Assembly (NCBI GenBank): GCA_942492935.1 | Contig: OW818654.1 | Coordinates: 3,301,113-3,365,112 of the forward strand | DNA length: 64,000 bases | Direction: 5' to 3' | DNA from: an uncultured bacterium | GTDB taxonomy: Bacteria; Bacteroidota; Ignavibacteria; Kapaibacteriales; UBA2268 | Part shown: piece after piece, positions 19,567 through 61,689 of the stretch | Layout of the letters: each line of letters starts with the position of its first letter | How positions within the stretch are numbered: the first letter of the stretch is position 1 | Translations under genes and position numbers: made by a program | The notes under the pieces: model-generated | Databases searched by the model: none | What the model was told of the DNA's origin: nothing | What the model saw: only the letters and a program-made list of their open reading frames with translations

Positions 19567-19570
19567 ACTA

Positions 19571-20145: not shown

Positions 20146-20191
20146 ATGCCCATCGAACTAAAAAATATGCCATCGCTGATTTTAGGCGATG
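20146..20191. repeat. CCATCG-pair motif, copy 3
   Basis: ATGCCCATCGAACTAAAAAATATGCCATCGCTGATTTTAGGCGATG; similarity to copy 2 continues about 60 bp further. Confidence 0.8.
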
Positions 20192-26800: not shown

Positions 26801-27699
26801 AAACTTCTTCAAATACAGGAGTATGGGCTAAAGCGAATAAATTTAAAACCATTGTTGGTGTAATTAGTTTACGAATTCCTGAAAACAATGCTTTAAATCA
26901 ACCGATTGACCTTGATTTTACTTGGTTTAATACCAAAGGTGCTGTTAAATATCACTTACAAGTAGCAAATGATTCGAAATTTGAAGATTTGATTTTCTCT
27001 CAGGATACCTTATCTGATATAAGTATGAATTTGAATATACTTCTACCTGGTAAAACTTACCATTGGAGAGTAAGAGCCAAAAGTAATGAAGGTTTTGGTG
27101 CTTGGTCAGAAGTAAGAACATTTACAACAGGAGCAAACATTGTAGTTCTTAAAGCACCTTTAAACAATATAACTATTGATAAAAAATCTGTAACTTTTGA
27201 ATGGGGAGCTATTCCAAATGCAACATTATATCATTTGGTTGTATCAGAGAATTCTGATTTAAGTAATCCAGTTTTGGATAAAAATGATATAGATTTGTTG
27301 TATTATACTTACAATGATTTAGAATGGGATAAAACATATTATTGGCACGTAAAAGGAATTATAACAGGTGAAGAAACGCAATGGTCTCAAACTTGGTCAT
27401 TCATTGCAAAAGAAGGCGGTTCGGTGTTTGATAGCAAGTTAATTTCTGATATGACAATTTCACCTAATCCAGCTATTGAATATTTGAATACAACATTTAA
27501 TTTGACAGAAAGTTCTAATGTTACATTGAAAATTACAGATATTAATGGCAGAGATTTGGTTGTATTGCCTCTCGGATTTATCAATTCAGGAATGAATAAA
27601 TATGAGCTTGATGTGAGAAATTTAAGCTCTGGTACTTTTTTCGTTCAGTTGGTAACTTCGCAAGGCATTGAAATTAAAGAAATTAAAATTGTTAAGTAA
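23815..27699 (+). CDS. T9SS-sorted surface protein: BNR/Asp-box beta-propellers + 6 FnIII-like repeats + CTD
   Basis: Many SxDxGxTW Asp-boxes; six Y(Y/F/W/H)W(R/H)(V/I) repeats; C-terminal ISPNPA...LSSGTFFVQL. Confidence 0.85.
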   Translation: MKKNGILNFVMAFLILAVAGFNANAQDFFGQLTHPSTSDAKFLKIMPTGKMYVGIMGVGIFSSTDEGGTWVSNSNGLTNKFVTDLTLKGSDMFISTLGGGIFKSTNYGSDWFATNNGLSELRVNTIFTYPNGTIFAGTYGNGVFLSVDNGLTWKESNKGLFWKDITSFAMSKAGFLIAGTNGGGIYRTQDTGKTWIRSSSGLKNMFITKLKSNNTNSSVFAGTNGRGVYQSANDGISWAELDTTFFYSHSPDTVPLPDLNVASIAFNSKNELVFSSRYGGIFFWDNDTYYSFRASDFMGNPAVAMDRHSNGTLYGTYPSNTIMYSTNNGEIWKEKNGPVVVWKNPKIFAAKQSTLFLFDSTGAIFRSLDSGKTWSSVKNSTKRINQMCLDSIGNIFAAADDGLWKSSTGGASWDKVFMSNDTTIMQVQTAPNGYIWTSTRYYKVIENGPPNPPTIIDIKRIFYSLDNGINWIQAPNLVIYKDDPAPKVLGINKNGDVYVSHGDKFWRSKNNGEFWTLSAKATSNEITGLGFTSSGAIFVTCTEGVFRSTNLGNTFDSIPIKSFNANKINITKNDEIYVHFSYNFIGSKEAWAVMRSTDFGNKWQMLNNSYNAELAQEISSSPDGDVYVSLQSGSLMKRVNPTTIAAPTLVDVQKDQKNVVLNPTFKWQSVSKAELYQIEVSEYDDFAYSWETMTQAGTEHTIQRNLMYNTKYYWRVRGKYHASNGAWSETRAFTTMLEAPFLKSPADDAIGVPVNAKLVWFKTNGATKYDIQVAKDSSFASPVFVSNGFADSTIITTQLEGLTNYYWRVKAKSDDAESYWSEIWSFKTVLGPPILIAPLDSAVDLDINITFSWHPAKMAKLYLIQFSEFNDFVINNEYVVTDTTYNSSDFNYFKSYFWRVRSTNDEGASDWSEVRTFTTGFEPPLLITPANNATNIEINTKYVWQKLTIADNYQIQVSKDENFADMLLDENTQNVDTHNGITLDNYEYYWWRIRAKTSSNTGVWAKANKFKTIVGVISLRIPENNALNQPIDLDFTWFNTKGAVKYHLQVANDSKFEDLIFSQDTLSDISMNLNILLPGKTYHWRVRAKSNEGFGAWSEVRTFTTGANIVVLKAPLNNITIDKKSVTFEWGAIPNATLYHLVVSENSDLSNPVLDKNDIDLLYYTYNDLEWDKTYYWHVKGIITGEETQWSQTWSFIAKEGGSVFDSKLISDMTISPNPAIEYLNTTFNLTESSNVTLKITDINGRDLVVLPLGFINSGMNKYELDVRNLSSGTFFVQLVTSQGIEIKEIKIVK

Positions 27700-30190: not shown

Positions 30191-31384
30191 TTGTTAAATA
30201 TAGCATTATTTGGTCCACCGGGAGCTGGTAAAGGTACACAATCAGAATTTCTGGTTAATAAATATAATTTATTTTATATTTCTACAGGTGATTTATTAAG
30301 AAAAGAAATAAAAGAAGGAACAGCCATTGGAGAGGAAGCAAAAAATATAATTGCAAAAGGTGGTCTTGTTTCTGATGAAATAATTGTTCAAATAATTGAG
30401 AAATCAATTACAGATAATCCAGGTTATAATGGATTTTTATTTGATGGTTTTCCGAGAACTTATATTCAAGCATATATTCTTGAAGGTTTGATGTTCAAAT
30501 TCAATTCTTCTCTAAACTGCCTTATTAGTATTGAATTACCTGAGGAAGAAGCTGTTCAGAGATTATTAAATCGTGGCAAAACTTCTGGTAGAAGCGATGA
30601 TAATGAAATAGTAATCAGAAACAGATTAAAAGAATATCACGAAAAAACACTACCTGTTCTGCAGTTTTATAAGGATAAGGGTACATATTTTGCTGTTGAT
30701 GGTCGTAATCAAATAGATGTTGTAAAAGATGAAATTACAAAAATTGTGAAGCAAGAATTAAGTAAGAGTTTATTGAATATCATTCTTTTTGGCTATCCTG
30801 GATGTGGAAGAGGTTCACAAGGTAAAGCACTTGCAAAACAATTCGATTTAGAATTTATTGCTACAGGTGAAATTCTTGCTCAAGAAGCAATTTCTGGGTC
30901 TAAGTTAGGTAATAAGATTACTGACTTATATAATAAAGGGCAGTTGACTCAAGGTTTGGTTGGTCAAATGTTTCCCGATGAGATTGTTGTGGAGTTAATT
31001 GAACAAAAATTCCAAAACACTGATGGAGCTAAAGGATTCATATTTAAAGGATTCCCTCGCACACTCGTTCAATCATATATACTTGATGGCTTACTCAGAA
31101 AAAATTCATCTTCAATTACTAAAGTGATTGAAATTGAAGTGCCAATTCTTGAATTAATTAGCCGACTTGAACATAGAAGTAAAACCATTGATAAAATGCA
31201 CTATGATGAAAGTATGCCAACAATCATAAGAAGGTTACAGGACCACGAATATAGAACTGTACCAGTTGTCAAAAAATATGCTGAAATTCATGGTTCAACA
31301 AAAATTAATGGTGTAGGAACTTTTGAAGAAGTCAATAAGCGAATTGCTGATGAAATAGAATTTGGTTTCAAAAATCTAAGATAG
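30191..31384 (+). CDS. adk: adenylate kinase, tandem two-domain form
   Basis: Domain 1: GPPGAGKGT, ISTGDLLR, DGFPR, GRSDD. Domain 2: GYPGCGRGS, IATGEIL, KGFPR. TTG start. Confidence 0.85.
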   Translation: MLNIALFGPPGAGKGTQSEFLVNKYNLFYISTGDLLRKEIKEGTAIGEEAKNIIAKGGLVSDEIIVQIIEKSITDNPGYNGFLFDGFPRTYIQAYILEGLMFKFNSSLNCLISIELPEEEAVQRLLNRGKTSGRSDDNEIVIRNRLKEYHEKTLPVLQFYKDKGTYFAVDGRNQIDVVKDEITKIVKQELSKSLLNIILFGYPGCGRGSQGKALAKQFDLEFIATGEILAQEAISGSKLGNKITDLYNKGQLTQGLVGQMFPDEIVVELIEQKFQNTDGAKGFIFKGFPRTLVQSYILDGLLRKNSSSITKVIEIEVPILELISRLEHRSKTIDKMHYDESMPTIIRRLQDHEYRTVPVVKKYAEIHGSTKINGVGTFEEVNKRIADEIEFGFKNLR

Positions 31385-44492: not shown

Positions 44493-47400
44493 CTACTTTA
44501 CCACCACTACTTTCTCAACTTCGCTCTTTCCACAACATTTCAATATTAAGTTGTAAGTGCCGGAACTGAGATTATCGGAGTTGATTGTGAGTTTGTATAT
44601 GCCTTCGTTTTGCTTACCGTTAGCAATGTCGAGTACTTTCATACCGACTAGATTGTAAAGTGATAGTTCTATTTCGCAATCATCAGCAAGAGTGTAAACA
44701 ACTTCAGTATTCTTTGAAAATGGATTTGGATTAACTTTTAAAGTTATGGGCTGTGTTAATGCTTTGCCAATCAAAACAGCATCTTTATTGTATGTTAGTT
44801 TGTTGAATTTTGTTCCAGAAATTATATCAGTCAAATCAAGATTATTGATTTCATAGTATTTATTTTTCTCTGAATCGTAATTCATAATTCGTAATTCGTA
44901 ATTTTCGATTGAGCCATCAATAGCAACTGTTGATTCATCATCTCCCCAGATGACAATTGCAGTTTTGCTATTAACTACTCTTCCAGCACCAACAATTTTA
45001 TTATCATTATTCATCACAGCAATTTCAGTATTATCAGGCAAATCAATATTCAATATCAATGATGCATTATTGCTTGTATTTTCATAATCTGTTTTGATAA
45101 TTCTTGCTTCAAAATCATCAATTTGGTTTGTAGAGGATGTTCTTCCTATTGCATTTGGAGGATAAATCAATGTATCTTTTGCATTTAAATATGCTTGATA
45201 ACCTTCGCCCGGTAATTGATTTCCAATTTGGTTAATACTTCCTGGTATATAGATTTTACCATCAGCACGTTTAACAATCACTAATCTACCAGCATCTGTA
45301 ATTGAAGCAAGTGCAGTTACAATGCTCATAGCAGAGTTTCGCAAATATGGAATTATTGACCAACCATTGTTTAAATAAACTGGTGTATTTTCTGGAACAA
45401 CTGCTGTACCTATTATAACAAGAGTATCTGCTTTTGTCAAATATGATTGATAGCCAAATTTTACATCCCAAATGCCAATTTGATTCAATCCACTCGGCAT
45501 AAAGATTTTGCCATCAGCACGCTTCATGATTACAAGATTTGGATTTAAATCTGCTGTTATATATTGGAGTGAGTCTGGGCTAAATGGAGTAATGTATGAT
45601 GAAACAAGATTCCAACCCTGTTTGTAGTAAAAAAGCATTTCATTAGGTTTTGTTGTAAAACCCCAAACATAAGACCAGTCAGATTCTACTGTATCAACGT
45701 TTGCCTTTACACGCCAAAAATATTTAGTATTATATTCGAGTTCTGGAACATTAAATTCATTTTCAGAAATTCCACTTTCATCAATAATTAAAGTTTCAAA
45801 ATTCAGATTTTTTGATAATTGGAATTTATATGTCGTTGCATTTGGAAATTCTTTCCATTTAAAAGTTAGATTTGTTTGAATATTGATTGAATCTTTTGCT
45901 GGAGTTTCTAAAATTGGAACTATATCAATTAATCCTAAACTATGTTCTGAACCGCAAGTAATATATCTCCATTTTACAGTTGTATCAATTTTCACTGGAT
46001 AATTTTTGTTAGTTGTTGTACCATCGCCGAGTTGACCATTATTATTAGCACCCCAACTCCATAATGAACCGTCAAATTTAATAGCTTTTGAATGATTGTA
46101 ACCACATGCAATATGAACCCAATTTGTATCTTGTCCTATTTGGATTGGTGAATATCTATCTAAGTAAGTACTATCTCCAATTTGTCCAATATAATTCCGC
46201 CCAAACCCCCATATAGTACCATCAGTTTTCAAGCAAATTGTATGAGCATAACCACAAGCGATGTATTTCCAGTTAGTATCAATACCTATTTTAACAGGTT
46301 TATTTACTATTATACTATCATAGGGGAATTGCCCAATAGTATTATCTCCCCATCCCCATAGAGTACCATCAGTTTTGATTCCTATTGTATAAAGTGGCGC
46401 TCCTACAACTTGAAGCCAATCATTATCACCTCCTATTCTTGTTGGTGATGTTTTATCAATTGTTGAACCATCACCAAGTTGCCCATAATCATTTGCACCC
46501 CAAGCCCATAGTGAGCCGTCTGATTTAATTGCAAATGTTTGATCTTGTGAGCATGAAATATATTTCCAATTAGTATCAATACCTATTTGAACAGGAGAAA
46601 TTTCTTCGTTGATAGAACCATAACCTATCTGTCCTCTTGAATTTCTGCCCCAAGCCCAAAGTTGTCCATTATTTTTAATCCCTACAGAATGCCAAAATCC
46701 GCAGGCAATTTTTTTCCAATCAAATTCTTTACCCACTTGAACCGGATAATTATATTGGGATACTTTATTGTTAAAACCTAATCTTTTATTGTAATTTGCT
46801 CCCCAGCCCCAAAGTGTACCATCTGGTTTAATAGCATGATTATGAAAATATCCTGCCGAAATTAAATTCCATTCATCTGTAAAAGAAATTTGTTTGGGAG
46901 TTAATATATCAACGATTGTACTATCTCCTACTTGACCGTAATAATTCCAGCCAAAACCAAAGAAATTAAAATGTGGTGTTTTAGGGTCTGTTATAGTATA
47001 AAAACGCCAAGTTTCAGACCATCTACTTGAAATGGAATTTGTTATTGCTTTCACTCTCCAATAATATGTTGACCAATAATTCAATGAATCGGGTAAAGAA
47101 AAAAAAGCAGTATTTATTGTATCATTAAAAACTAATGCGTTGAATTGTATATCTTCAGAAATTTGAATTAGATATTTTTGGGCAAAGGGAACTGCTTCCC
47201 AACTAAATTCAAATAATGGTTGTTTCTTTGAGTCAATTTCTGGTGAAATTAGTTTTGGCTTTGTAAGTCCAGTGTAGAATGCTGGTTCTAATTCTTGCGT
47301 TAAATACTCATCATCACTTCTTGCAATTGAAATTTTTACTGAATAATAATTAAATAATTCAGTACTATCAATTTTTGCAATATAAAACCCATCTGAATAA

Positions 47401-48746
47401 TTGTAATCTAATTGAATCCATTCAGAAGATTCTAATTCCTTATAGTAAAACTTAAGAGTATCACTTTCCTCAAGATTATTCAATTTGCATTTTATAGAAA
47501 TTGTATCATCCGGCTTATAAATTTCTTTAAGAACATCATTATTTGAAATAAACAGTAATTTACATTCAGGAAAATCTTTATTTGAAGTTTCACTATTAAA
47601 TCCACAAGATACTTTTACAAATCCTAATTTATCGTAAAACAGCAAACTATCATATTTGATTTCTACTTTATTAAATCCAGCAGGTAAGTTGAAATTTTCA
47701 TAAAAAATTTCATTATCAAAAGCATTGTAATTTGCATTTTTAATGAAATTATTAAGTAATGTATCAACTACAACCAAGTCTTGATTTATAATTTTCAAAT
47801 TTGTAGATTTCTGTAATGAAAACCCATAACTATTATTAAAAATGCCAGGTTTGTTATAAGGTTCTACCGATGTTGGTCTTGTTATTTTGATACCACTAAT
47901 ATTATCATTTCTGAGCATTATATCACCAGTAAAAAATTGATAACTATCAATATTTACAAAATGACTGCCATAATCAAATCTTTTGATTGTATCTAATTTA
48001 TCATGAGTTAGATAATTTAGTTTATTATCTTTTATATTAATTATTGGAGATAATTGAACAGATTTTGTACCGTAATCTTCATGATATTGAGATGTATGCG
48101 TAAAATTATCTGCATTAATAAAATTATAGTATTTTTGTTTAATATTTGGATTATCATTCCTTAGATTGAAGTTTATAGAATACTTTTCAAAGAGAAACAT
48201 TTCGGATAAATCTTGTTCAGTATATTGTAAATAAGTATTAAAAGCTGGCATCATATCAAAACCTTCAGTAGATATTTTCCTATTCAATGAATTAAAATCA
48301 TCATATTGATAATTTATTTTGAATGAATTATTGACAGAAATGTTATAAGTTTCAGATTGATTAATTCCATTCTTAGAAGCATACATAAGCATAAATTTGT
48401 CATAATAGTCTAAATCTGATTTAATATAACAAATCGTAGCAAATCCCAATTCAAATTGAGCTGATATATCATTCACATAAAATTCATTTACAACAATACC
48501 ACCGTTTAATAAAAGCATCCTATTACTAGTAAATTTGAAATACCAAGAACCATAATTTAAATAATTTGTTGGATTTTCATTTTTGTTTAAGTAGTTGAAA
48601 GTTATCTTATTTTTGAAATCATCTTTATTAATATTGACATAGTAATTTGTATCTCTATCAACAACTATCGAATCTTTAACAAAAAAATAGTAAGGAAGAA
48701 CAGGAATTATTGATTGAGGATCAGCTGTATCATTAAAATCATACAC
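44493..48746 (-). CDS. C-terminal part: FnIII, 7 RCC1/BLIP-II repeats, FnIII, T9SS CTD
   Basis: W.WG.N..GQ.G.G repeats; Y(Y/F)WRVKA; VNPNPF...LSSGTYNL; no signal peptide at its own start. Confidence 0.75.
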   Translation of the reverse strand: MYDFNDTADPQSIIPVLPYYFFVKDSIVVDRDTNYYVNINKDDFKNKITFNYLNKNENPTNYLNYGSWYFKFTSNRMLLLNGGIVVNEFYVNDISAQFELGFATICYIKSDLDYYDKFMLMYASKNGINQSETYNISVNNSFKINYQYDDFNSLNRKISTEGFDMMPAFNTYLQYTEQDLSEMFLFEKYSINFNLRNDNPNIKQKYYNFINADNFTHTSQYHEDYGTKSVQLSPIINIKDNKLNYLTHDKLDTIKRFDYGSHFVNIDSYQFFTGDIMLRNDNISGIKITRPTSVEPYNKPGIFNNSYGFSLQKSTNLKIINQDLVVVDTLLNNFIKNANYNAFDNEIFYENFNLPAGFNKVEIKYDSLLFYDKLGFVKVSCGFNSETSNKDFPECKLLFISNNDVLKEIYKPDDTISIKCKLNNLEESDTLKFYYKELESSEWIQLDYNYSDGFYIAKIDSTELFNYYSVKISIARSDDEYLTQELEPAFYTGLTKPKLISPEIDSKKQPLFEFSWEAVPFAQKYLIQISEDIQFNALVFNDTINTAFFSLPDSLNYWSTYYWRVKAITNSISSRWSETWRFYTITDPKTPHFNFFGFGWNYYGQVGDSTIVDILTPKQISFTDEWNLISAGYFHNHAIKPDGTLWGWGANYNKRLGFNNKVSQYNYPVQVGKEFDWKKIACGFWHSVGIKNNGQLWAWGRNSRGQIGYGSINEEISPVQIGIDTNWKYISCSQDQTFAIKSDGSLWAWGANDYGQLGDGSTIDKTSPTRIGGDNDWLQVVGAPLYTIGIKTDGTLWGWGDNTIGQFPYDSIIVNKPVKIGIDTNWKYIACGYAHTICLKTDGTIWGFGRNYIGQIGDSTYLDRYSPIQIGQDTNWVHIACGYNHSKAIKFDGSLWSWGANNNGQLGDGTTTNKNYPVKIDTTVKWRYITCGSEHSLGLIDIVPILETPAKDSINIQTNLTFKWKEFPNATTYKFQLSKNLNFETLIIDESGISENEFNVPELEYNTKYFWRVKANVDTVESDWSYVWGFTTKPNEMLFYYKQGWNLVSSYITPFSPDSLQYITADLNPNLVIMKRADGKIFMPSGLNQIGIWDVKFGYQSYLTKADTLVIIGTAVVPENTPVYLNNGWSIIPYLRNSAMSIVTALASITDAGRLVIVKRADGKIYIPGSINQIGNQLPGEGYQAYLNAKDTLIYPPNAIGRTSSTNQIDDFEARIIKTDYENTSNNASLILNIDLPDNTEIAVMNNDNKIVGAGRVVNSKTAIVIWGDDESTVAIDGSIENYELRIMNYDSEKNKYYEINNLDLTDIISGTKFNKLTYNKDAVLIGKALTQPITLKVNPNPFSKNTEVVYTLADDCEIELSLYNLVGMKVLDIANGKQNEGIYKLTINSDNLSSGTYNLILKCCGKSEVEKVVVVK

Positions 48747-50605
48747 ACTGACAAAAACATCATAGTACCAAGTGGTATTGGGATACTAACATTTTTCTTA
48801 CCAGAATACTTTGCATATTCAACATTCATATTTCTATCCGTCAAAATAATCCACTCGGCAGTTTCAAATACATCTATGTTTAAAAATCTGGCTTTTGAAA
48901 AAATAAAATCTGTTTTTATCTCATCATTTTCGCTTTTGGCTATTAACTTTCCCTTATAAGTGGGTGGATTAATATCAGGTATTGGAAAATTTATATCATT
49001 AACATATACTTTTAATATAGCTTTGGCACTTGAACCTGCATTTATTGAAACATTTTGTGGTTCGATTTCATAAGTAAATCCATCAGGAAAATCATAATCC
49101 AAGAACAGATTATAAGTTTGAGAATTTAAACTTTTGTTATACAAAGTTAATGTGTCCGATTTTGTCCATGATGAATCCGACAATTCGATATTTCCAAAAT
49201 TGATTGAAGAAGGCATTATAATTGATTTTGATTTGGCGGCAGAAAAAATGTCCATTCTTCCTCCACCTTGCTCCCAAATTGTTGCACCTACATCAATTGA
49301 TGTTCCCATTAATGCAGATTTAATCTCTTGTGGAGTCCAAGTTGGATTTATTTGTCTTAATAATGCCGCCGCTCCAGCAACATGTGGAGCGGACATTGAT
49401 GTTCCACTCTTTGTTGCAAATTGATTATAAGGTGCCGCCGAATAAATATCTACACCGGGTGCAGAAATATCTGGTTTGATAATATCCGAGCCCACAACTG
49501 GACCGCGAGAACTAAAATTAGCAACTTGGTCGTTGTTATCAGTTGCGGCAACTGTTAAAGCATCTTTTGCAATTCCAGGACTAAACAAAGTATATATAGA
49601 TTTTCCAGCATTTCCTGCTGATACCACACAAACTACTCCATTTTCAACTGCATTATTTACTGCAACACATTGTGGGTCTTCAGGATAACCACTGCCTCCC
49701 AAACTCAAATTGATTACATCCGCACCATCATCTGTATTTGGGTCACCATCTGGATCAATAGAATATTCAATACCTGCTATAATTGCATCTGAAGAACCTG
49801 AAGATTGAGCATTTAAAACTTTTACTCCAAGAAGTGATGCTTCTGGTGCAACACCCGTTAATCCATTTCCGTTTCCAGCCGCAATACCTGCACAATGCGT
49901 ACCATGACCATGGTCATCAAAAAAATTAGGAGAATTGGATACAAAACTATACCCGCCAACAACTTTACCGTTATTCAAAGATACATGATTGGAATCAATA
50001 CCAGTATCAATTATGGCAATTAAAATCCCTTTTCCTTTAACACCATAATTCGCCCAAACACTATCTGCACGAATTACCTTGTTACTTGCATCATCATTGG
50101 TTTTGACTTCCACAACATCATGCACAGATTTGATATAATCCAATTTTTTAATTTCATCTATTACCCAAGGTTTAGTCCTCAAAGAAATACCATTGAGAGC
50201 TATCTTGTAACGAAATTTTATCGTATAAACAGGTCTTATTCCATGAATTTTTATCAATTCTTCATCATTAATTATTCTTTCTAAGTCATTAAGAAATCTT
50301 TTTTGTTGAAGTTGTACCAATTCAAGGGAGCGATTTAAATTCGAAAAATTAAAATTTGTCTGACCTTTAAATGTTTTAACTGGCTCTTGAGAGAATTCAA
50401 CAATCACATCCTTATCTTCATTTGGATTAGATGATTTAGTATGAATTATTTTTCCATTTTCAATGAGTGAAGTTGTGGTACTAGCAATTTGATTCTTTAA
50501 TTCCAATGGTTCTTGATTTTTTGGAAATTTGATTTGCACTTGAGCAAATAACGAAATTGTATTAATTATAATGATAATTAAAACAAGAGTTAAATTTTTT
50601 TTCAT
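48707..50605 (-). CDS. N-terminal part: signal peptide, I9-like prodomain, S8 peptidase
   Basis: Catalytic triad IIDTGID, HGHGTHCAG, GTSMSAPHVAG. Confidence 0.88.
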   Translation of the reverse strand: MKKNLTLVLIIIIINTISLFAQVQIKFPKNQEPLELKNQIASTTTSLIENGKIIHTKSSNPNEDKDVIVEFSQEPVKTFKGQTNFNFSNLNRSLELVQLQQKRFLNDLERIINDEELIKIHGIRPVYTIKFRYKIALNGISLRTKPWVIDEIKKLDYIKSVHDVVEVKTNDDASNKVIRADSVWANYGVKGKGILIAIIDTGIDSNHVSLNNGKVVGGYSFVSNSPNFFDDHGHGTHCAGIAAGNGNGLTGVAPEASLLGVKVLNAQSSGSSDAIIAGIEYSIDPDGDPNTDDGADVINLSLGGSGYPEDPQCVAVNNAVENGVVCVVSAGNAGKSIYTLFSPGIAKDALTVAATDNNDQVANFSSRGPVVGSDIIKPDISAPGVDIYSAAPYNQFATKSGTSMSAPHVAGAAALLRQINPTWTPQEIKSALMGTSIDVGATIWEQGGGRMDIFSAAKSKSIIMPSSINFGNIELSDSSWTKSDTLTLYNKSLNSQTYNLFLDYDFPDGFTYEIEPQNVSINAGSSAKAILKVYVNDINFPIPDINPPTYKGKLIAKSENDEIKTDFIFSKARFLNIDVFETAEWIILTDRNMNVEYAKYSGKKNVSIPIPLGTMMFLSVCMILMIQLILNQ

Positions 50606-53384: not shown

Positions 53385-53473
53385 TACCTAAGTTCAAATA
53401 TAATTGATTACGTTTCGTTTGTAAATTCTGTTTGTGAAGTGAAAATTGTTGAATGATTATTATAAATCTAACT

Positions 53474-53782
53474 ATGCAAAATATAATCGAAGTAAATAAT
53501 GAAAAGATACAAGAATATTGCAAACTATTAGATATCAATAAGATGTATATTTTTGGTTCTGCAGTTTCTGATAAATTCAACAATAATAGTGATATTGATT
53601 TTTTGATTTCATTTAAAGATAGTATTAGTATTGAAGATTATACTGATAATTACTTCGATTTGCATTATAAATTGAGCGATTTATTTGGAAGGAAAATTGA
53701 TTTAATTACTGAAAATAGTTTATCCAATCCATATTTCATTGAAAGTATCAACGAAACTAAAGAGTTGATTTATGAATCGTGA
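53474..53782 (+). CDS. minimal nucleotidyltransferase (MNT) antitoxin-like
   Basis: IFGSAV, SDIDFL, RKIDL, NPYF motifs. Confidence 0.85.
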   Translation: MQNIIEVNNEKIQEYCKLLDINKMYIFGSAVSDKFNNNSDIDFLISFKDSISIEDYTDNYFDLHYKLSDLFGRKIDLITENSLSNPYFIESINETKELIYES

Positions 53783-54275
53783 CATTAAAAAAATGAATAG
53801 AAAACTACATATATTATTTTTAATAGGAACAATTATAATTACTCTTAATCCGACAAGAAGTTATGCCCATATGTCCGAGGAAATTGTTCCATTTGTGTTT
53901 AATGGATTTGTTGGTTATCAGTATGGCATTGGTACAAATGGTTACATATTGAGTGGTTTTGATGCAAACTTGGTTTTGATGGTTTTAAATGGCGGGTATT
54001 CAAATAAAATAGATTTTGGTTCAAATGCATATATTGGCATCGGCTATGCATCAATACTTCAAATACAATATGGTTTTGCATATTCACAAAAAAAAGACTT
54101 GTTGAGACTTAGGTCAGATTTACCCATGCACCTTTTGGGGACTAAAGGAATTTGGAGAACTTTGTCAATTGGACTATATTGGGAAAAACGGTTTAATGAT
54201 GCGGATTATTCCAATAATTTTGGATTTAGTTTATCTATAGGAATTATGAATCTTATTTGGAATCCAGAAAAGTAA
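53772..54275 (+). CDS. hypothetical exported beta-rich protein preceded by a 7-codon HEPN-like stub
   Basis: MNRDIKK followed by a second ATG (53793), a signal peptide and amphipathic beta strands. Confidence 0.55.
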   Translation: MNRDIKKMNRKLHILFLIGTIIITLNPTRSYAHMSEEIVPFVFNGFVGYQYGIGTNGYILSGFDANLVLMVLNGGYSNKIDFGSNAYIGIGYASILQIQYGFAYSQKKDLLRLRSDLPMHLLGTKGIWRTLSIGLYWEKRFNDADYSNNFGFSLSIGIMNLIWNPEK

Positions 54276-54340
54276 TAATAATAAATGTAATTTAATCATT
54301 TAATATTTGCAAAAATTAAAAATTAAAGGGCTTGAATAAT

Positions 54341-54586
54341 ATGCTACGTCCAACTGCTATAGAAGTTAAACCTTGTGATAACTATCAATTACTTATCAAA
54401 TTTGATAATAATGAAACTCGTTTATTTGATGTTGAAAAACTATTAGAAAAACCACCTTTTAAACCATTAAAATCAAAATCATTATTCGAAACTGTTCATA
54501 CTAATGGTATAACTATTGAATGGCAAAATGATATTGATATATGTCCAGATGAATTGTATTATAATAGCAAACTTGTTTCAAATTAA
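54341..54586 (+). CDS. DUF2442-family protein (orphan)
   Basis: VKPCDNYQLLIKFDN...FDV...F..V...G.TIEW.NDIDICPDELY. Confidence 0.85.
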   Translation: MLRPTAIEVKPCDNYQLLIKFDNNETRLFDVEKLLEKPPFKPLKSKSLFETVHTNGITIEWQNDIDICPDELYYNSKLVSN

Positions 54587-54624
54587 TCCCTGCTATGAAA
54601 ATGGTAGGGATTTTTTAGTTTTAG
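54584..54624. terminator. AATCCCTGC hairpin, copy 2
   Basis: Matches copy 1 except for one substitution and one fewer T; begins at the DUF2442 stop codon. Confidence 0.85.
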
Positions 54625-54686
54625 GAAATTTGAAAAAATAATTTTAAGTTTATATTGTCATTTATGTTTTAATTAAAGGAAAATCA

Positions 54687-54917
54687 ATGATTGCACTGCA
54701 AGGGATATATAGAAATGGGGAGATTGAACTCGAACAGAAAATAATAAGCAATTATCCAATTAAAGTTATAGTTACTTTTTTAGTTGATGAATCAAAAAGT
54801 GAAAATACAATATTGAATATTAATGATTTTTCTTTTCTTGAATCAAGAAGAAAAACACTTGAATTTAAGGGTAATATATCAGATGCAATCATAGAAGAAA
54901 GAAGAGATGAACAATGA
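54687..54917 (+). CDS. putative antitoxin (AF2212/DUF104-like)
   Basis: GIYRNGEIEL...V.VTF; C-terminal ISDAIIEERR; ATGA overlap with the PIN gene. Confidence 0.7.
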   Translation: MIALQGIYRNGEIELEQKIISNYPIKVIVTFLVDESKSENTILNINDFSFLESRRKTLEFKGNISDAIIEERRDEQ

Positions 54918-55342
54918 AAATATTTATTGATACATCATCTTTGATTAAATTATATCATTATGAAGTTGATACTGATAGAATTGATGCATTGCTTAGAGAA
55001 AATCCAATTTCAGAAATCTATTTATCTGAATTAGCAAAAGTTGAATTTTTTTCAGCAATTTGGAAAAAGGTTAGAACAAAAGATCTAAGCGAGATTCATG
55101 CAATTTATTTAATTAATGCCTTTAAAACAGACTTTTCAAAGTTTTCTTTTATTAAAGTACAAAAAGATTTAATTGAAAATGCAACAAAACTAATCGTTCA
55201 ATATGGAAAATTAGGTTTAAGAACTTTAGATTCAATTCAGTTAGCATCAATCCTTTCTGTTAAAGAACATGTATCTTTTGTATTAACTTCTGATATTTTA
55301 TTGAAAAATATAGTTGAAAGAGAAAATATTTATACAAAATAA
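54914..55342 (+). CDS. PIN-domain (VapC-like) toxin
   Basis: FIDTSSLIK, LAKVEF, LRTLDSIQLAS, TSD. Confidence 0.88.
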   Translation: MKIFIDTSSLIKLYHYEVDTDRIDALLRENPISEIYLSELAKVEFFSAIWKKVRTKDLSEIHAIYLINAFKTDFSKFSFIKVQKDLIENATKLIVQYGKLGLRTLDSIQLASILSVKEHVSFVLTSDILLKNIVERENIYTK

Positions 55343-57257: not shown

Positions 57258-57281
57258 AATCCTCTTGTAGTCAAGAGGATT
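57258..57281 (-). terminator. intrinsic terminator of the cytochrome gene
   Basis: AATCCTCTTG-TAGT-CAAGAGGATT with an A-run on the left, which is the U-tail on the minus strand. Confidence 0.75.
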
Positions 57282-57309: not shown

Positions 57310-60129
57310 TTATTTGTACAAATACAACATTGAATAAATAATGAATACTACAACGCATAAACCAGTTGTCAATGCAGCCCAACCAAAAACTTTTACTAAT
57401 CTTTCATAAGATTTTGATGGAGGAGGTACAATCAATTTTTCTAATTTGCCACTTTCAACTAATTTTTGATATTCAACAGGTCTATCGTGTTTAAATTCTT
57501 CTAAAGAATAACTACCAGTGAATACTACTGTATCCATAGGGAATTTTTCAGGTCTAAAATGAGTATTAAAGAAATGTACAGTAAAGATAAAGCCAGCAGC
57601 AAGTAATGCTTCATCACTGTGAATAATAGTAGCGATATTCAAAAATTCACCTGGAATAATTTTGGTAAAGAATGATGGGAACCATAATGAAAATCCAGTT
57701 GAACCAATAATAAAAATACCCCAAAATACTGCAAAGTAGTCAAATTTTTCCCAGTATGTCCATCTACCATATTGCGGTTGAGGACCTTTCCCTATAAACC
57801 ATAAAATTGACGCTTTTGCATCTTGAGCATCTTTCAAATTTGGTACTAAAGAATCAGGACCAAACAACATATTCTTCCAAGAGCCAAACTCTTCTTTTTT
57901 TACTCTAAATAAATCAAAAATATGAACTATAAAAATTCCCATCAAAAATGCTGCAGCTATTCTGTGAAATATTCCAGCTCCTTCTGCTCCACCATAAATG
58001 ACAACGATTGTCTGTGCTATCTCAGTATATGAGAATTTCAATAACATTCCAGTAACCGCAAGTGTAAGGAAACTACAAATCATAATAATATGCAAAGCTC
58101 TGTTTAATGGAGTAAATCTCATAACACGTTTATCATTTGGATGATTTGCTTCAATCAATTTCATTGTTTTACGCATTTGAATTGAACGAGGTAACCAAAG
58201 CAATGTATGGAGCCAACTAATCAAAAATGTTCCAATTAACAATGAAGTCATACCCCAAAAAGCATAGAACAAAAATGGATACTTCTCAGGGTCGTGATGA
58301 GTGGCGTGTGTTAGATAACCTGCAAATCTTCTATTAGCATTTGGATGGCATTTTTGACAAGTTGCAACAACATTTTCACGAGAAAGGTGTGATTCTGGAT
58401 TATCAACTGGTAATATATCATGTGCACCATGGCAGTCATAACATTTAGCTGCCTTTTGAGAGCCAAGTTGCGAAACTTTTCCATGATAAGTGTCGAAGTA
58501 TGTTTTGGTAATTTTCTCATGACATTTGCCACAAGTCTTCATAATATCCATTCTGAAGTGATTATCACTTGCTCCTTTAATTGAATGGGCTGAGTGACAA
58601 TCTTTACAAGTAGGCAATCTTTCCTTTGAAGTAGAAACAAATTTCGAGTGAATTGATTTATCAAATTGCTTCTCAATACCGTAATGGCATTTACCGCAAG
58701 TGTGTGCGATATTATCTGGATTAGTACTTGAAGTTTTATCTTTATGATGTCTTTCACTATGTGCTGTATGGCAATCAGCACAAGTAGCTGTTACAGTTAA
58801 TCCGCTTTTAGTTAATCCCTTTCCATGAATACTTTCAGAATATTGACTAACGAGATTCTTAGGTGCATCTTTAATTCTCATTGCAATTTTTTTGCCATCC
58901 ATGTGGCAACTTGAACATAGCTTTGGTATATTAGATGGGAATATAGTGGATTCAGGATTCTTTTTTGCTAAAACTTCGTGTGAACCATGGCAGGTCTTAC
59001 AATCAGGTGCATCTTTATCCTTTAAAGCGTGAAGCTCACCGTGCATACTTTTGTCATAATTCTTCTTAACATTTTCATGACAAGAGCCACAATTAACTTT
59101 AGTTTGAATACTTTCGCATGGTCTTTTGCTTGAAGGCATCACATCAGTATGACATTGACTACAAGCTGTTTTTGAGTGAACAGAATGATTAATATTTCTT
59201 GTATCGACAAATAATGACCTGCCATCGCTACTTGCTTTTATATCTTGTCTTTGATGACATTTCAAACATTCATCATTTGCAAGTCCCATAGCATAATATA
59301 CTTTACGAATTTTGTGTGGTTGATGACAATCAACACAAGCAGGCAAAATGTGAGCTTCTTTTTCCCATTTCTGACCATTGATAACTTTTTGATGTACTTC
59401 TTCAATTCTTGCATGGCACTTTGTACATGTTTTTGCAATATTTCCTCTGGAAATTGATGAACGATTGTCGGTATGTGGAAGAATTAAATGTGCTGAGTGG
59501 CAAGAAGCACAAGTTGCAGTTACTACTAAACCTTTATGTAATAAACCATATCCGTGAATTGACTCAGTATAATTTTCTAATATATGTGTTTGTGGTATAT
59601 TTCTTTGCAATTGAACTGGAGAACCTTCCTGATGGCATCTTCCACATAAGTAAGGTATTTTTATTGGCGAAACAGGAGAATTAGGGTCGTTTACTTTTGT
59701 AATTTCGTGGCTTCCATGGCAACTCTGGCAACTTGGTGCTAATGGGTCGCCCTTTTTACTTGCTTGACCATGCAGCCCAATATCATAATTTTTTTGTGCT
59801 TCTTGATGACATTTACCGCACTTTGCTTTAGGTAAATCATCTTCGTGTGGAAGGTCGGCATCTTTTAAATCAACATGGCAATCAATACATGCTGCTCCAT
59901 AGTGGGTTGATGCTTTTAGTTTTTTTTCACTCACAAAGACTGATATTGTTTTTCCATTTTTTTTGCCTTTTAGTGATGTATCTTCGTGGCAAGCATAACA
60001 ATCACTATTATCGGGTTCCTTTTGTTGAGCAGCGATTGTAGTATTTAATATTATATAAGAAAACCCTGCAATAGCTAAAATAATTGTGGAATAAAATGCT
60101 ATCCGATTATTACCCTTAGCATTAATCAT
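57310..60129 (-). CDS. 19-heme c-type cytochrome fused to a membrane cytochrome b (CbcL/FdnI-like)
   Basis: 19 CxxCH counted; C-terminal TM helices with His (RALH, IFH, IIH, VH..TH) and RWTYWEKFDYFAVFWG; ATG at 60129 precedes the signal peptide (track start 60270). Confidence 0.88.
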   Translation of the reverse strand: MINAKGNNRIAFYSTIILAIAGFSYIILNTTIAAQQKEPDNSDCYACHEDTSLKGKKNGKTISVFVSEKKLKASTHYGAACIDCHVDLKDADLPHEDDLPKAKCGKCHQEAQKNYDIGLHGQASKKGDPLAPSCQSCHGSHEITKVNDPNSPVSPIKIPYLCGRCHQEGSPVQLQRNIPQTHILENYTESIHGYGLLHKGLVVTATCASCHSAHLILPHTDNRSSISRGNIAKTCTKCHARIEEVHQKVINGQKWEKEAHILPACVDCHQPHKIRKVYYAMGLANDECLKCHQRQDIKASSDGRSLFVDTRNINHSVHSKTACSQCHTDVMPSSKRPCESIQTKVNCGSCHENVKKNYDKSMHGELHALKDKDAPDCKTCHGSHEVLAKKNPESTIFPSNIPKLCSSCHMDGKKIAMRIKDAPKNLVSQYSESIHGKGLTKSGLTVTATCADCHTAHSERHHKDKTSSTNPDNIAHTCGKCHYGIEKQFDKSIHSKFVSTSKERLPTCKDCHSAHSIKGASDNHFRMDIMKTCGKCHEKITKTYFDTYHGKVSQLGSQKAAKCYDCHGAHDILPVDNPESHLSRENVVATCQKCHPNANRRFAGYLTHATHHDPEKYPFLFYAFWGMTSLLIGTFLISWLHTLLWLPRSIQMRKTMKLIEANHPNDKRVMRFTPLNRALHIIMICSFLTLAVTGMLLKFSYTEIAQTIVVIYGGAEGAGIFHRIAAAFLMGIFIVHIFDLFRVKKEEFGSWKNMLFGPDSLVPNLKDAQDAKASILWFIGKGPQPQYGRWTYWEKFDYFAVFWGIFIIGSTGFSLWFPSFFTKIIPGEFLNIATIIHSDEALLAAGFIFTVHFFNTHFRPEKFPMDTVVFTGSYSLEEFKHDRPVEYQKLVESGKLEKLIVPPPSKSYERLVKVFGWAALTTGLCVVVFIIYSMLYLYK

Positions 60130-60453
60130 AAATTCTTTGATTTTTAAATTCATCAGTTTTATTTTGTGAGAATTAAAATCAAATGACTTATTGATTTTTA
60201 GATAATCTAAAACATTTTGTAAATGGTTAAATATTTTCATCAAAAGCTCCATATTAAATACAACATTCAATCGTTTGAGTAATTCATAGTCAAAAAAAGA
60301 TTTAAAAATTAATCAAACATTTAAATACATTTCTTAACAATTATAAAATTAAGAAATTTTATAATTACAAACAATACTTTTTATAAAAATATTTTTTATT
60401 GCTATAAACTATAAATTATATGCTTGATACATCACATTATTAGAATAAATTTA

Positions 60454-61689
60454 CTAAATATCGTTACGTTTAAATGCAATAAGAATATGACTGATAGCAA
60501 TTAATTCAATCCATTCAATATCAAGTTTAAATCTGATGTTTGCAACTAAAGTAAGTGCATAAATCATTGTGAAATAGAGTAATATGGTAACAAAAATAAC
60601 TGCTATCTTTTTATCAATTTTAAATAATAGAATCAAACTAATTAAAAATAGGAGATTCAATATCAAAACAGGTAATTTTCTAACTATTAAAAATTTTAAA
60701 CTTGAATCTGAAAAATATCTTGGCGGTATCCACCAATAAAGGTATGCCTGATAGATAGTTTTTTCTAAATAAAGATATGGTTCATTATTTATTAATTTTA
60801 AAGCTATTGGTTTGAAGTATGGGTCGAGCAAAACATCATTTTTAATTGCTTTAAGTGAATCGATATAATTTTTGTCTTTATCACTAACAATGTCATATTT
60901 CGGGTTTTTGTGATGTTGGTATAGAAATCCTTCATAAATATTTCCATAATGTGATTTTGCTGGAATGAATTGATTAAAAGCTATATAATTTCTAATTATC
61001 CAAGGTGATAAAACAATTGAAAAACAAACAATAAATAAAATCATATCCTTATAATTGCTTTTATAAAATTTATATCCTAAATAAATATAAAATGATATAA
61101 TAACAGGCATTGCAACTGGTTGTGTTAAATATACTATTCCACTAATAATTCCATTAATAATAACAATTTTTGTTATATTCTTATTATTTATTAAAGCTGT
61201 TTTTAAATCCATATAAAAAATAAACCAAATAATTGCAATTGGAATAAAAATATTCGTAACTTCAATTACCATTGGATAATAAAAATATGATGGGTGAAAC
61301 AAGAAAAGCAAACCGGCAATTCTAAATTGTAATTTATACGCTCTATTACTTAATAAAAATAACAAAAGAGGTACTAATCCAATCAATATATGTTGAGTAA
61401 ATACTATCCAAAATTTTGCATCGCTACCAAATATCTTAAGGAAAGAAGCCAAAAATAATGGATATACTGGAACTTTCATAGCAGTTGGACCTAATTCAGG
61501 TATTATTGAATAGCCATTTCCAATAACTAAATTCTTCGCAATCTTAAAATCTTCTACTGAATTAAAATCCCCATTGTAATTGAAAAGAAAAATCAATCTA
61601 AACAAAATAAAAAACAGACAAATAATTGTCATTTTAAATAAATTTAGACTTTCAACCCAAAGTAAACATTTCTCAGTAAAAATTTTCAT
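60454..61689 (-). CDS. GT-C (ArnT/PMT-like) membrane glycosyltransferase
   Basis: A.NL..G.GY, P.YPLFLA, PW.IRNY motifs; multiple TM segments. Confidence 0.7.
   Translation of the reverse strand: MKIFTEKCLLWVESLNLFKMTIICLFFILFRLIFLFNYNGDFNSVEDFKIAKNLVIGNGYSIIPELGPTAMKVPVYPLFLASFLKIFGSDAKFWIVFTQHILIGLVPLLLFLLSNRAYKLQFRIAGLLFLFHPSYFYYPMVIEVTNIFIPIAIIWFIFYMDLKTALINNKNITKIVIINGIISGIVYLTQPVAMPVIISFYIYLGYKFYKSNYKDMILFIVCFSIVLSPWIIRNYIAFNQFIPAKSHYGNIYEGFLYQHHKNPKYDIVSDKDKNYIDSLKAIKNDVLLDPYFKPIALKLINNEPYLYLEKTIYQAYLYWWIPPRYFSDSSLKFLIVRKLPVLILNLLFLISLILLFKIDKKIAVIFVTILLYFTMIYALTLVANIRFKLDIEWIELIAISHILIAFKRNDI

What the first reader, a model, noticed from the sequence alone, without database searches (positions are those of the whole stretch)
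57310..60129. 19-heme CbcL-like quinol oxidoreductase in an FCB-group bacterium
A periplasmic chain of 19 CxxCH motifs is fused to a His-ligated membrane cytochrome b. Geobacter CbcL, needed for low-potential extracellular electron transfer, has this layout with about nine c-hemes. Here the wire is roughly doubled, the gene is monocistronic with its own terminator, and it lies two genes downstream of the nuo operon. This suggests unrecognised metal, humic or electrode respiration, or long periplasmic electron transfer, in this lineage.
Basis: partly seen in the sequence, partly recalled or inferred. Interest (0 to 1): 0.65.

Follow-up and report, generated by a model that had tools for sequence, protein, structure and literature searches.

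The report
19-heme CbcL-family membrane cytochrome bc
This gene really encodes a membrane cytochrome b fused to a chain of 19 c-type hemes, but it belongs to a widespread family listed in 2018 as relatives of Geobacter CbcL, whose function nobody has tested.

Summary
The ORF at 57310-60129(-) encodes 939 aa with 19 CxxCH motifs, against 0.11 expected by chance. The C-terminal part is a six-helix domain with the FdnI fold. It keeps all four FdnI heme-b histidines.

"CbcL-like" is right at the superfamily level. The protein aligns end to end at 33-38% identity with 9-heme, about 620-aa proteins that share the heme spacing of Geobacter CbcL. Its 59%-identical relative from Ignavibacteria GWF2_33_9 is already listed as a 19-heme CbcL/MtrH/MtoC homolog by Zhong and Shi (2018).

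The "doubling" is a tandem copy of an 8-heme module added to an 11-heme form.

It is not special to this lineage, which is a Kapabacteria relative. At least 594 species genomes carry a relative. Among the 80 best loci, which span many phyla, 19 hemes is the norm.

The terminator is real. The position near nuo is real but is not seen in any of the 81 related loci.

In relatives the gene often sits next to imcH homologs and a second, shorter c-b fusion. This fits a quinol-to-periplasm electron-transfer role.

Direction of electron flow, partners and any extracellular respiration remain untested. This is a new member of a known but uncharacterised kind, of moderate interest.

The parts
57310..60129 (-). 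Gene for the 939-aa c-b fusion cytochrome. The longest ORF extends upstream to TTG 60270, and one database gene call gives 976 aa.
   Evidence: Relatives are 910-957 aa and align from about residue 3-40 of the 939-aa form.
60025..60129 (-). N-terminal signal peptide or anchor (aa 1-35). The hydrophobic stretch spans about aa 10-34 and is followed by TIAA/QQ.
   Evidence: Hydropathy peaks at aa 10-34. Predicted helix at aa 9-32. Read directly from the sequence.
59305..60009 (-). 8-heme module, copy 1 (aa 41-275, hemes 1-8).
   Evidence: BLASTP of aa 41-275 against aa 285-518: 39% identity over 236 aa, E 4e-59. Heme spacing is 37, 23, 30, 28, 45, 28, 30.
58576..59277 (-). 8-heme module, copy 2 (aa 285-518, hemes 9-16).
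   Evidence: Heme spacing is 35, 24, 30, 28, 45, 28, 30.
58294..58554 (-). Partial third copy (aa 526-612, hemes 17-19), ending in the invariant HATHH motif just before the membrane.
   Evidence: It matches hemes 3-5 and 11-13 of the two modules at 37-40% identity. H608 and H611 are invariant.
57319..58278 (-). Six-helix membrane domain (aa 618-937). It is an FdnI/HydC-like di-heme cytochrome b core (helices B-E) with one extra helix on each side. Heme-ligand candidates are H680, H722, H837 and H852.
   Evidence: Pfam PF01292. Predicted helices at 618-662, 674-698, 715-748, 792-816, 827-857 and 906-937. Foldseek match to 1kqf_C with target TM-score 0.75. hhalign to E. coli FdnI at 95.9% probability, with the ligands aligned.
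57258..57281 (-). Intrinsic-terminator-like hairpin followed by a T-run, 29 nt after the stop codon.
60130..60453 (-). AT-rich intergenic gap of 324 nt upstream of the gene. It presumably holds the promoter, but this is not shown.
   Evidence: The sigma-70 scan was uninformative.

Best explanation
The gene encodes an inner-membrane bc-type cytochrome of the CbcL/MtrH/MtoC superfamily, in its 19-heme subfamily. It needs no other redox subunit.

Shown from sequence and fold:
- A Sec signal peptide exports the N-terminal domain.
- That domain carries 19 covalently bound hemes. Each has a conserved second histidine, so it is a pure electron-transfer chain with no catalytic heme.
- It is built from two copies of an 8-heme module plus a 3-heme remnant.
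- The chain is tethered by one helix to an FdnI-type four-helix di-heme cytochrome b, followed by a sixth helix.

Inferred by analogy with FdnI and CbcL:
- Menaquinol is oxidised at a site near the cytoplasmic-side heme b (H680/H852).
- Protons are released to the cytoplasm.
- Electrons pass from heme bC to heme bP, then along the 19 c hemes to periplasmic or outer-membrane acceptors.
- This route conserves little energy and is helped by the membrane potential. It would therefore suit low-potential acceptors.

The same device could run backwards, taking periplasmic electrons into the quinone pool as an energy-conserving redox loop. The direction is not determined here. The long chain may reach far across the periplasm. 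That is an estimate from about 8 nm for the 10-heme MtrA, not a measurement.
For: - There are 19 CxxCH motifs against 0.11 expected.
- All 19 motifs are invariant across 20 relatives from several phyla. So are exactly 19 further histidines in the c domain. This matches the nine His-His hemes reported for CbcL (PMC13591261).
- Pfam PF01292 scores above its cutoff.
- The only significant structural match in the PDB is E. coli FdnI (1kqf_C): probability 1.0, target TM-score 0.75.
- A profile of the domain aligns to FdnI at 95.9% probability. H680, H722, H837 and H852 fall on FdnI His18, His57, His155 and His169.
- The protein aligns over the whole length of 9-heme, 615-632-aa proteins at 33-38% identity (E 1e-98 to 1e-129). 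Their heme spacing (23, 25, 24, 24, 28, 31, 41, 28) copies that tabulated for GSU0274.
- It aligns with an 11-heme, 689-aa form at 45% identity.
- The relative in locus L010 (59% identical) is OGU58019.1. It is listed as a 952-aa, 19-heme, 6-TM CbcL/MtrH/MtoC homolog.
- Among 74 related loci, 21 have an imcH homolog within 10 kb and 15 of these are directly adjacent on the same strand. Another 22-27 have a second c-b fusion with 11-17 hemes, and 10 have Rieske plus cytochrome b genes.
- None of the six to seven recurring neighbour gene families I identified by sequence or Pfam is a molybdopterin, NiFe or flavin catalytic subunit. Other recurring clusters were not annotated.
Against: - No member of the 19-heme subfamily has been studied experimentally, to my knowledge and in the papers I searched.
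- I did not have the sequence of GSU0274 itself. The link runs through proteins that share its length and heme-spacing signature, and through the published table.
- In this genome the gene has no cytochrome, porin or imcH neighbour within the window. No partner is known.
- The AlphaFold model of the c domain is poor (mean pLDDT 66, several stretches below 50). The shape and reach of the heme chain are unknown.
- Three further histidines are invariant in the 19-heme family: H641, H736 and H857. H736 is also invariant in the shorter c-b fusions. This is more than two bis-His hemes need, and it is unexplained.
- An FdnI-type site on the cytoplasmic side is the layout of quinone-reducing enzymes, so inward electron flow is equally plausible.
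Confidence: 0.72

Rival explanations
1. It is an inward-running electron-input module, like MtoC. The 19-heme chain collects electrons from periplasmic or extracellular donors such as Fe(II), reduced humics, reduced soluble cytochromes or sulfide-derived carriers. It then reduces menaquinone at the cytoplasmic-side site, taking up cytoplasmic protons. This would be an energy-conserving redox half-loop, as in formate dehydrogenase-N.
For: The membrane domain has the FdnI fold and the FdnI ligands. In FdnI the physiological direction is quinone reduction. The same superfamily includes MtoC from Fe(II) oxidisers, and Zhong and Shi found no sequence feature that separates the two directions (PMC6295460). 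Many carriers belong to groups not known as metal reducers, such as Gemmatimonadota, Bryobacterales and Kapabacteria.
Against: The gene is frequently adjacent to imcH homologs (15 of 74 loci). Zhong and Shi found ImcH homologs only in Fe(III) reducers and regard them as quinol oxidases. The studied relative CbcL works outward. No donor-oxidising enzyme or mtoAB-type genes were seen next to the gene in the loci examined.
Confidence: 0.18
2. It is the membrane anchor and electron-transfer subunit of a periplasmic enzyme complex, in the way FdnI serves FdnGH, HyaC serves hydrogenase and PhsC serves thiosulfate reductase. The catalytic partner would be encoded elsewhere.
For: It belongs to PF01292 and has the FdnI fold. 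Some sources annotate relatives as 'cytochrome b subunit of formate dehydrogenase' or 'thiosulfate reductase cytochrome b subunit'.
Against: None of the six to seven recurring neighbour gene families I identified in 74 loci is a molybdopterin, NiFe or Fe-S catalytic subunit. They are cytochromes, Rieske/cytochrome b and sigma-54-type regulators. Other recurring clusters were not annotated. The FdnI equivalog model scores 31 bits against a cutoff of 115.85, and the hydrogenase cytochrome b model scores 13 against 121.5. The covalently fused 19-heme domain takes the place of the usual Fe-S subunit.
Confidence: 0.05
3. It is mainly a periplasmic electron store or buffer, not a dedicated pathway. 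The 21 hemes would act as a capacitor tied to the quinone pool and smooth redox swings in a facultative organism.
For: The heme count is large and no fixed partner gene exists. Overlapping redox windows and electron sharing are described for CbcL and PpcA, which are called 'dynamic redox reservoirs' (PMC13591261).
Against: Conservation is very high: 47-63% identity across the 80 best loci and 64% mean column identity in a 20-sequence alignment. Heme spacing is strictly kept. This points to specific geometry and partners, not bulk storage. A single-copy membrane protein stores little charge.
Confidence: 0.05

Closest known systems
Geobacter sulfurreducens CbcL (GSU0274), the inner-membrane bc-cytochrome needed for low-potential extracellular acceptors
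   Same: The order of parts matches: signal peptide, multiheme c domain with bis-His hemes, then six transmembrane helices holding a HydC/FdnI-type di-heme b. No Fe-S, flavin or molybdopterin subunit is involved. The window protein aligns at 33-38% identity over the full length of 9-heme proteins with the CbcL heme-spacing signature.
   Different: It has 19 hemes against 9, and 939 aa against 619. The extra hemes come from 8-heme modules that CbcL lacks, and the spacing of the hemes nearest the membrane differs. The host is a Kapabacteria relative, not a member of the Desulfuromonadia. Its function is untested.
The 19-heme entries among the CbcL/MtrH/MtoC homologs of Zhong and Shi 2018 (PMC6295460 Table S2), e.g. 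OGU58019.1, OGV21847.1, PKP08298.1, BAX79136.1 and MAF27600.1
   Same: The subfamily is the same: 913-952 aa, 19 CxxCH at matching spacing, and six TM helices. OGU58019.1 is my locus L010, at 59% identity to the window protein.
   Different: There is no difference in kind. This is one more member, from a Kapabacteria-like genome. The closest database relatives are 62-63% identical.
The 11-heme c-b fusions of about 690-730 aa (e.g. P0249; the Opitutus terrae and Lacunisphaera entries in Table S2)
   Same: P0249 is 45% identical over its whole length to aa 281-936 of the window protein. Its heme spacing (35, 23, 30, 29, 45, 28, 30, 25, 30, 28) is identical to hemes 9-19.
   Different: They lack the first 8-heme module. 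The 19-heme form is this architecture plus one tandem module copy.
E. coli FdnI, the gamma subunit of formate dehydrogenase-N (PDB 1kqf chain C)
   Same: It shares the four-helix di-heme b fold (target TM-score 0.75). All four heme ligands align.
   Different: Sequence identity is only 17%. The window protein has one extra helix on each side and a fused heme-c chain in place of the FdnGH partners. It falls below the NCBIfam equivalog cutoff.

Membership tests
CbcL/MtrH/MtoC superfamily of bc-type quinol oxidases / quinone reductases | An N-terminal exported domain with multiple CxxCH motifs (3-23 in the published survey). | tested here: met
   19 CxxCH motifs at aa 44-591 of the 939-aa form, preceded by a signal-peptide-like N-terminus. 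The range comes from PMC6295460.
CbcL/MtrH/MtoC superfamily of bc-type quinol oxidases / quinone reductases | A C-terminal half with about six transmembrane helices, similar to HydC/FdnI b-type cytochromes. | tested here: met
   Six predicted helices. PF01292 scores 36.2 bits against a 30.1 cutoff. Foldseek matches 1kqf_C with target TM-score 0.75. hhalign gives 95.9% probability.
CbcL/MtrH/MtoC superfamily of bc-type quinol oxidases / quinone reductases | Conserved histidines in the membrane helices that can ligate two b hemes. | tested here: met
   H680, H722, H837 and H852 align with FdnI His18, His57, His155 and His169. They are invariant in the 19-heme family and in the 13-17-heme fusions. 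Actual heme binding was not tested.
CbcL/MtrH/MtoC superfamily of bc-type quinol oxidases / quinone reductases | Detectable full-length sequence homology to CbcL-type proteins (the survey reports 28.6-100% identity within the family). | tested here: met
   33-38% identity over about 580-660 aligned residues to five 9-heme, 615-632-aa representatives with the GSU0274 heme-spacing signature. The relative L010 is itself listed in Table S2.
Geobacter CbcL proper (orthologs of GSU0274) | Nine c-type hemes, about 615-625 aa, with heme spacing 23, 25, 23, 24, 29, 28, 43, 28. | tested here: not met
   The window protein has 19 hemes and 939 aa, with a different spacing built from 8-heme modules. It is a paralogous subfamily, not an ortholog.
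Geobacter CbcL proper (orthologs of GSU0274) | Required for respiration of low-potential extracellular acceptors, and switched off at high potential. | not testable with these tools
   This is known only from genetics and electrochemistry in G. sulfurreducens.
FdnI / HydC cytochrome b subunits of periplasmic dehydrogenases | Encoded with, and serving, catalytic subunits such as FdnGH, NiFe hydrogenase or PhsAB. | tested here: not met
   No such gene lies in the window around the locus. None appears among the six to seven recurring neighbour families I identified in 74 loci. TIGR01583 scores 31.3 against 115.85, and TIGR02125 scores 13.1 against 121.5.
Complete extracellular electron-transfer pathway (inner-membrane oxidase, periplasmic carrier and outer-membrane porin-cytochrome conduit) | Presence of a porin-cytochrome or Mtr-type conduit, and of a cytochrome c maturation system, in the same genome. 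| not testable with these tools
   Only 64 kb of a 4.49-Mb genome is available. The window has no other CxxCH-bearing ORF. It does hold a DsbD_N protein and a weakly ResA-like thioredoxin-fold protein. In relatives, loci L002 and L004 carry a signal-peptide protein ending in an aromatic residue that may be a beta-barrel, flanked by multiheme cytochromes. I did not verify that it is a porin.

The most novel reading that the evidence does not exclude
The 19-heme subfamily may be a self-contained wire that spans the periplasm and links the menaquinone pool directly to the outer membrane, without soluble carriers. Together with the adjacent imcH and shorter cbcL-like genes seen in many relatives, it would form a set of inner-membrane quinol oxidases tuned to different potentials. 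That arrangement is known from Geobacter. Here it would be spread across hundreds of uncultured species in a dozen or more phyla, including Kapabacteria, Acidobacteriota, Gemmatimonadota, Eisenbacteria, Calditrichota and Planctomycetota, where extracellular respiration is largely unrecognised.
Probability: 0.2. Interest if true: 0.7.

Novelty: new member of a known kind. Interest (0 to 1): 0.35.

Why it matters
The family is large. At least 594 of about 185,000 species genomes carry a relative. The 80 best loci are 47-59% identical to the window protein and come from many phyla, nearly all of them labelled as metagenome-assembled or uncultured genomes. It is also one of the simplest imaginable links between the quinone pool and the periplasm.

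If the 19-heme form does carry respiratory electrons outward, or brings them in, then extracellular or long-range periplasmic electron transfer would be far more common in soils, sediments and groundwater than culture work suggests. Its frequent pairing with imcH homologs and a second c-b fusion would extend the Geobacter model of potential-specific quinol oxidases well beyond the Desulfuromonadia.

For this particular window the gain is modest. It adds one more member, in a Kapabacteria-like genome, with no local partners.

Tried and rejected
- Sequence searches of the PDB gave only weak c3, MtrC/MtrF and MtrA-like matches, plus an unnamed 278-aa 'Cytochrome c' (28pb). Its heme spacing (33, 23, 22, 24) is not that of CbcL, so I dropped the idea that it is the CbcL c domain.
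- The membrane domain alone found nothing in the PDB by phmmer. Fold and profile comparisons were needed.
- The AlphaFold model of the whole protein was too weak in the c domain to measure the length of the heme chain.
- The sigma-70 promoter scan was no better than shuffled sequence.
- I looked for conserved neighbours as a clue to function. No window neighbour (nuoN, the 411-aa membrane ORF, the pentapeptide-repeat protein) recurs in any of 81 related loci. I therefore rejected the nuo link.
- I rejected the 'enzyme anchor' reading for lack of any catalytic neighbour.
- I rejected a catalytic heme because each of the 19 hemes has a conserved distal histidine.
- Literature searches for '19 heme', 'CbcL-like', and Kapabacteria plus multiheme found nothing specific to this subfamily beyond PMC6295460.
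Full report

Yes. The minus-strand ORF ends at 57310. It reads 986 aa from the first possible start, TTG 60270. That length matches relatives of 910-957 aa. It also gives an N-terminus that reads as a signal peptide, and the 47 residues upstream have no counterpart in relatives.

The protein has exactly 19 CxxCH motifs, and 38 of its 41 cysteines lie in them. Its own composition predicts 0.11 motifs. In 2000 shuffles the maximum was 2. No other stop-free stretch of 60 aa or more in the 64-kb window carries a single CxxCH.

Pfam finds multiheme families (Cytochrome_C7, c3_2, the MtrC/MtrF domain, Paired_CXXCH_1). It also finds PF01292, the prokaryotic cytochrome b561/Ni_hydr_CYTB family, above its cutoff in the C-terminal part.

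A hairpin with a 10-bp stem and a T-run follows the stop codon by 29 nt. NuoN and NuoM lie upstream on the same strand, separated from the gene by one 411-aa membrane ORF with no family hit. A separate promoter in the 324-nt AT-rich gap is likely but not shown.

**2. Anatomy of the c-heme domain**

The heme spacing is 37, 23, 30, 28, 45, 28, 30, 23 | 35, 24, 30, 28, 45, 28, 30, 25 | 30, 28. Residues 41-275 and 285-518 are 39% identical over 236 aa (E 4e-59). The last three hemes match hemes 3-5 and 11-13 of the two modules. The chain is therefore two tandem copies of an 8-heme module plus a 3-heme remnant.

I aligned 20 relatives from Kapabacteria, Ignavibacteria, Bacteroidota, Acidobacteriota, Gemmatimonadota and Latescibacteria. 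All 19 motifs are invariant. So are exactly 19 further histidines in the c domain. Every heme can therefore be bis-His ligated. This is the signature of an electron-transfer chain with no catalytic centre, and nine His-His hemes are reported for CbcL (PMC13591261).

**3. Anatomy of the membrane domain**

Six helices are predicted. This part of the model has pLDDT 75-85, whereas the c domain is poor (overall mean 66).

The only significant structural match in the PDB is E. coli FdnI (1kqf_C): probability 1.0, target TM-score 0.75. A profile of the domain aligns to the E. coli FdnI sequence at 95.9% probability.

| Window residue | FdnI residue |
|---|---|
| H680 | His18 |
| H722 | His57 |
| H837 | His155 |
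| H852 | His169 |

To my knowledge of the Fdn-N structure, His57 and His155 bind the periplasmic heme, and His18 and His169 bind the cytoplasmic-side heme next to the menaquinone site.

One extra helix connects the periplasmic c domain to the cytoplasmic start of the FdnI-like core. A sixth helix follows the core.

Three further histidines are invariant in the 19-heme family: H641, H736 and H857. H736 is also invariant in the shorter c-b fusions. These are unexplained.

**4. What family is it?**

The database search gave 4439 hits. The best 120 are nearly all 878-998 aa and 56-63% identical to the window protein. Two longer tandem-fusion ORFs stand out (see section 8). The sources name these proteins only 'cytochrome b/b6 domain-containing', 'cytochrome c3 family' or 'cytochrome b subunit of formate dehydrogenase'.

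A scan of one genome per species found at least 594 genomes with a relative. The 80 best loci include Ignavibacteriales, Holophagales, Bryobacterales, Solibacter, Gemmatimonadota, Eisenbacteria, Zixibacteria, Krumholzibacteria, Calditrichota, KSB1, Hydrogenedentota, Phycisphaerae, Myxococcota and Omnitrophota. Nearly all are labelled as metagenome-assembled or uncultured genomes. Most of the 74 full-length copies have exactly 19 motifs. The others have 18, 20 or 21.

Zhong and Shi (2018, PMC6295460) surveyed CbcL/MtrH/MtoC homologs. They found them in 15 phyla, at 416-1034 aa and with 3-23 motifs, mostly with six TM helices. Their Table S2 lists about twenty entries of 907-951 aa with 19-20 motifs. 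One is Ignavibacteria GWF2_33_9 OGU58019.1 (952 aa). That protein is my locus L010, with the same length and motif positions, and it is 59% identical to the window protein.

I also tested homology directly. A profile search of 1.84 billion cluster representatives returned 9-heme proteins of 615-632 aa. Their heme spacing (23, 25, 24, 24-26, 28, 31, 40-43, 28) matches the published pattern for GSU0274 (23, 25, 23, 24, 29, 28, 43, 28). The window protein aligns over their whole length at 33-38% identity, with E values from 1e-98 to 1e-129. An 11-heme, 689-aa form aligns to residues 281-936 at 45% identity with identical spacing.

So the 19-heme protein is the 11-heme architecture plus one more copy of the 8-heme module. 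It is a paralogous subfamily of the CbcL superfamily, not an ortholog of Geobacter CbcL.

**5. Genomic context**

In this window the gene stands alone. None of its neighbours, nuo included, occurs within 10 kb of the gene in any of 81 related loci. The nuo position therefore carries no weight.

Across the 74 related loci with a full-length copy, the pattern is as follows.

| Neighbour within 10 kb | Loci (of 74) |
|---|---|
| imcH homolog | 21 (15 directly adjacent, same strand) |
| Second, shorter c-b fusion (11-17 hemes) | 22-27 |
| Rieske plus cytochrome b pair | 10 |
| No multiheme cytochrome neighbour | 29 (including the window) |

- **imcH homologs.** They have three N-terminal helices, one CxxxxCH and six CxxCH motifs at the published positions, and a NapC/NirT Pfam hit.
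- **Shorter c-b fusions.** Their b domain is only 26-30% identical to the window's, but it shares five of the histidines.
- **Possible outer-membrane proteins.** A few loci also carry further multiheme cytochromes and a possible outer-membrane beta-barrel.

None of the six to seven recurring neighbour families I identified is a catalytic dehydrogenase or reductase subunit, although other recurring clusters were not annotated. ImcH and CbcL are the potential-specific menaquinol oxidases of Geobacter extracellular respiration. This recurring pairing is the best indirect support for a respiratory quinol-to-periplasm role.

**6. Mechanism**

The parts list and the ligand set are shown. The rest is inferred from FdnI and CbcL.

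The proposed route starts with quinol oxidation near the cytoplasmic-side heme, with protons released inside. Electrons then pass through the two b hemes and along the 19 c hemes to a periplasmic or outer-membrane acceptor. This route does not build proton-motive force, and the membrane potential assists it. The same argument has been made for CbcL (10.1101/2022.08.31.506072).

The reverse direction would conserve energy, as in Fdn-N. The superfamily includes MtoC from iron oxidisers, so I give this rival 0.18.

Taking about 8 nm for the 10-heme MtrA (my knowledge of the MtrCAB structure), 19 hemes in a line could reach about 15 nm. That is much of the periplasm. I could not check this estimate because the model is poor and I had no coordinates.

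**7. Organism**

GroEL is 88-89% identical to Candidatus Kapaibacterium / Kapabacteria proteins. Two large window proteins carry T9SS sorting domains. 'FCB-group bacterium' is therefore correct. I found no paper linking Kapabacteria to this kind of cytochrome.

**8. Longer variants**

Two hits, P0017 (1566 aa) and P0030 (1636 aa), are single ORFs. Each joins a roughly 13-heme c-b fusion to a 19-heme c-b fusion, giving two b domains in one reading frame. They mirror the tandem gene pair seen in L002 and L004.

**9. Verdict**

The feature is real and was described correctly. The family assignment is right at the superfamily level. The claims of rarity and of lineage-specific novelty are not right. 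The 19-heme form is the family norm, it is widespread, and it was already catalogued in FCB-group genomes.

The function is untested anywhere. The partners in this genome are unknown.

This is a new member of a known but uncharacterised kind. I score interest at 0.35.

Noticed in passing
window 11125-18155: A mobile or defence patch: a DDE transposase (11125-12438), a RhuM-family protein (15123-16094) and a 680-aa fusion of an HsdR N-terminal domain with an N6 DNA methylase of the Eco57I type (16113-18155).
   Followed up: no
window 53453-55342: A cluster of small toxin-antitoxin-like genes between groEL and the cytochrome: a Pol-beta-type nucleotidyltransferase (53453-53782), DUF2442 (54332-54586) and a PIN domain protein (54914-55342).
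   Followed up: no
window 23815-27699 and 44493-48746: Two very large secreted proteins with T9SS C-terminal sorting domains. One (1294 aa) has fn3 and Ig-like repeats. The other (1417 aa) has seven RCC1 repeats and is followed by a subtilase (48707-50605).
   Followed up: partly
window 30191-31384: A 397-aa ORF with two separate adenylate-kinase stretches. It looks like a doubled or fused ADK, which is unusual for bacteria.
   Followed up: no
window 5003-6937: A 644-aa membrane protein combining PEMT-like, PAP2 and prolipoprotein diacylglyceryl transferase (LGT) domains in one ORF.
   Followed up: no
window 8915-10359: A DsbD_N-domain protein next to a thioredoxin-fold protein with a weak ResA/DsbE resemblance. 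It may form part of the thiol-reduction arm used in cytochrome c maturation. All scores are below the curated cutoffs.
   Followed up: partly
window 57319-58278 (aa 641, 736, 857; also aa 338 at about 59116-59118): The membrane domain has three invariant histidines (H641, H736, H857) beyond the four that match the FdnI heme ligands. H736 is also invariant in the 13-17-heme fusions. One non-motif cysteine (C338, in 'RPCE') is invariant in the c domain. None of these is explained.
   Followed up: partly
proteins P0017 and P0030 (metagenomic relatives): Single ORFs of 1566 and 1636 aa that join a roughly 13-heme c-b fusion to a 19-heme c-b fusion, giving two cytochrome b domains in one reading frame. 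They could be real fusions or merged gene calls of the tandem pair seen in L002 and L004.
   Followed up: partly
L002 about 7900-21500 and L004 (same layout): The nearest GTDB relatives carry a roughly 14-kb respiratory island. In order: a 13-heme c-b fusion, the 19-heme c-b fusion, an imcH homolog, Rieske, cytochrome b, an 11-heme cytochrome, a 3-heme cytochrome, a 425-aa signal-peptide protein ending in ...INYWF (a possible outer-membrane beta-barrel with no Pfam hit), then 14-heme and 6-8-heme cytochromes. It looks like a complete inner-to-outer-membrane pathway.
   Followed up: partly
L056 10001-14066 (uncultured Melioribacter sp.): The homologous region is split into three ORFs of 330, 665 and 284 aa, not one. 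It is either a disrupted gene or a version in separate pieces.
   Followed up: no
window 60454-61689: A 411-aa polytopic membrane ORF lies between nuoN and the cytochrome gene. It has no Pfam or NCBIfam hit and no counterpart near the cytochrome gene in any related locus.
   Followed up: partly
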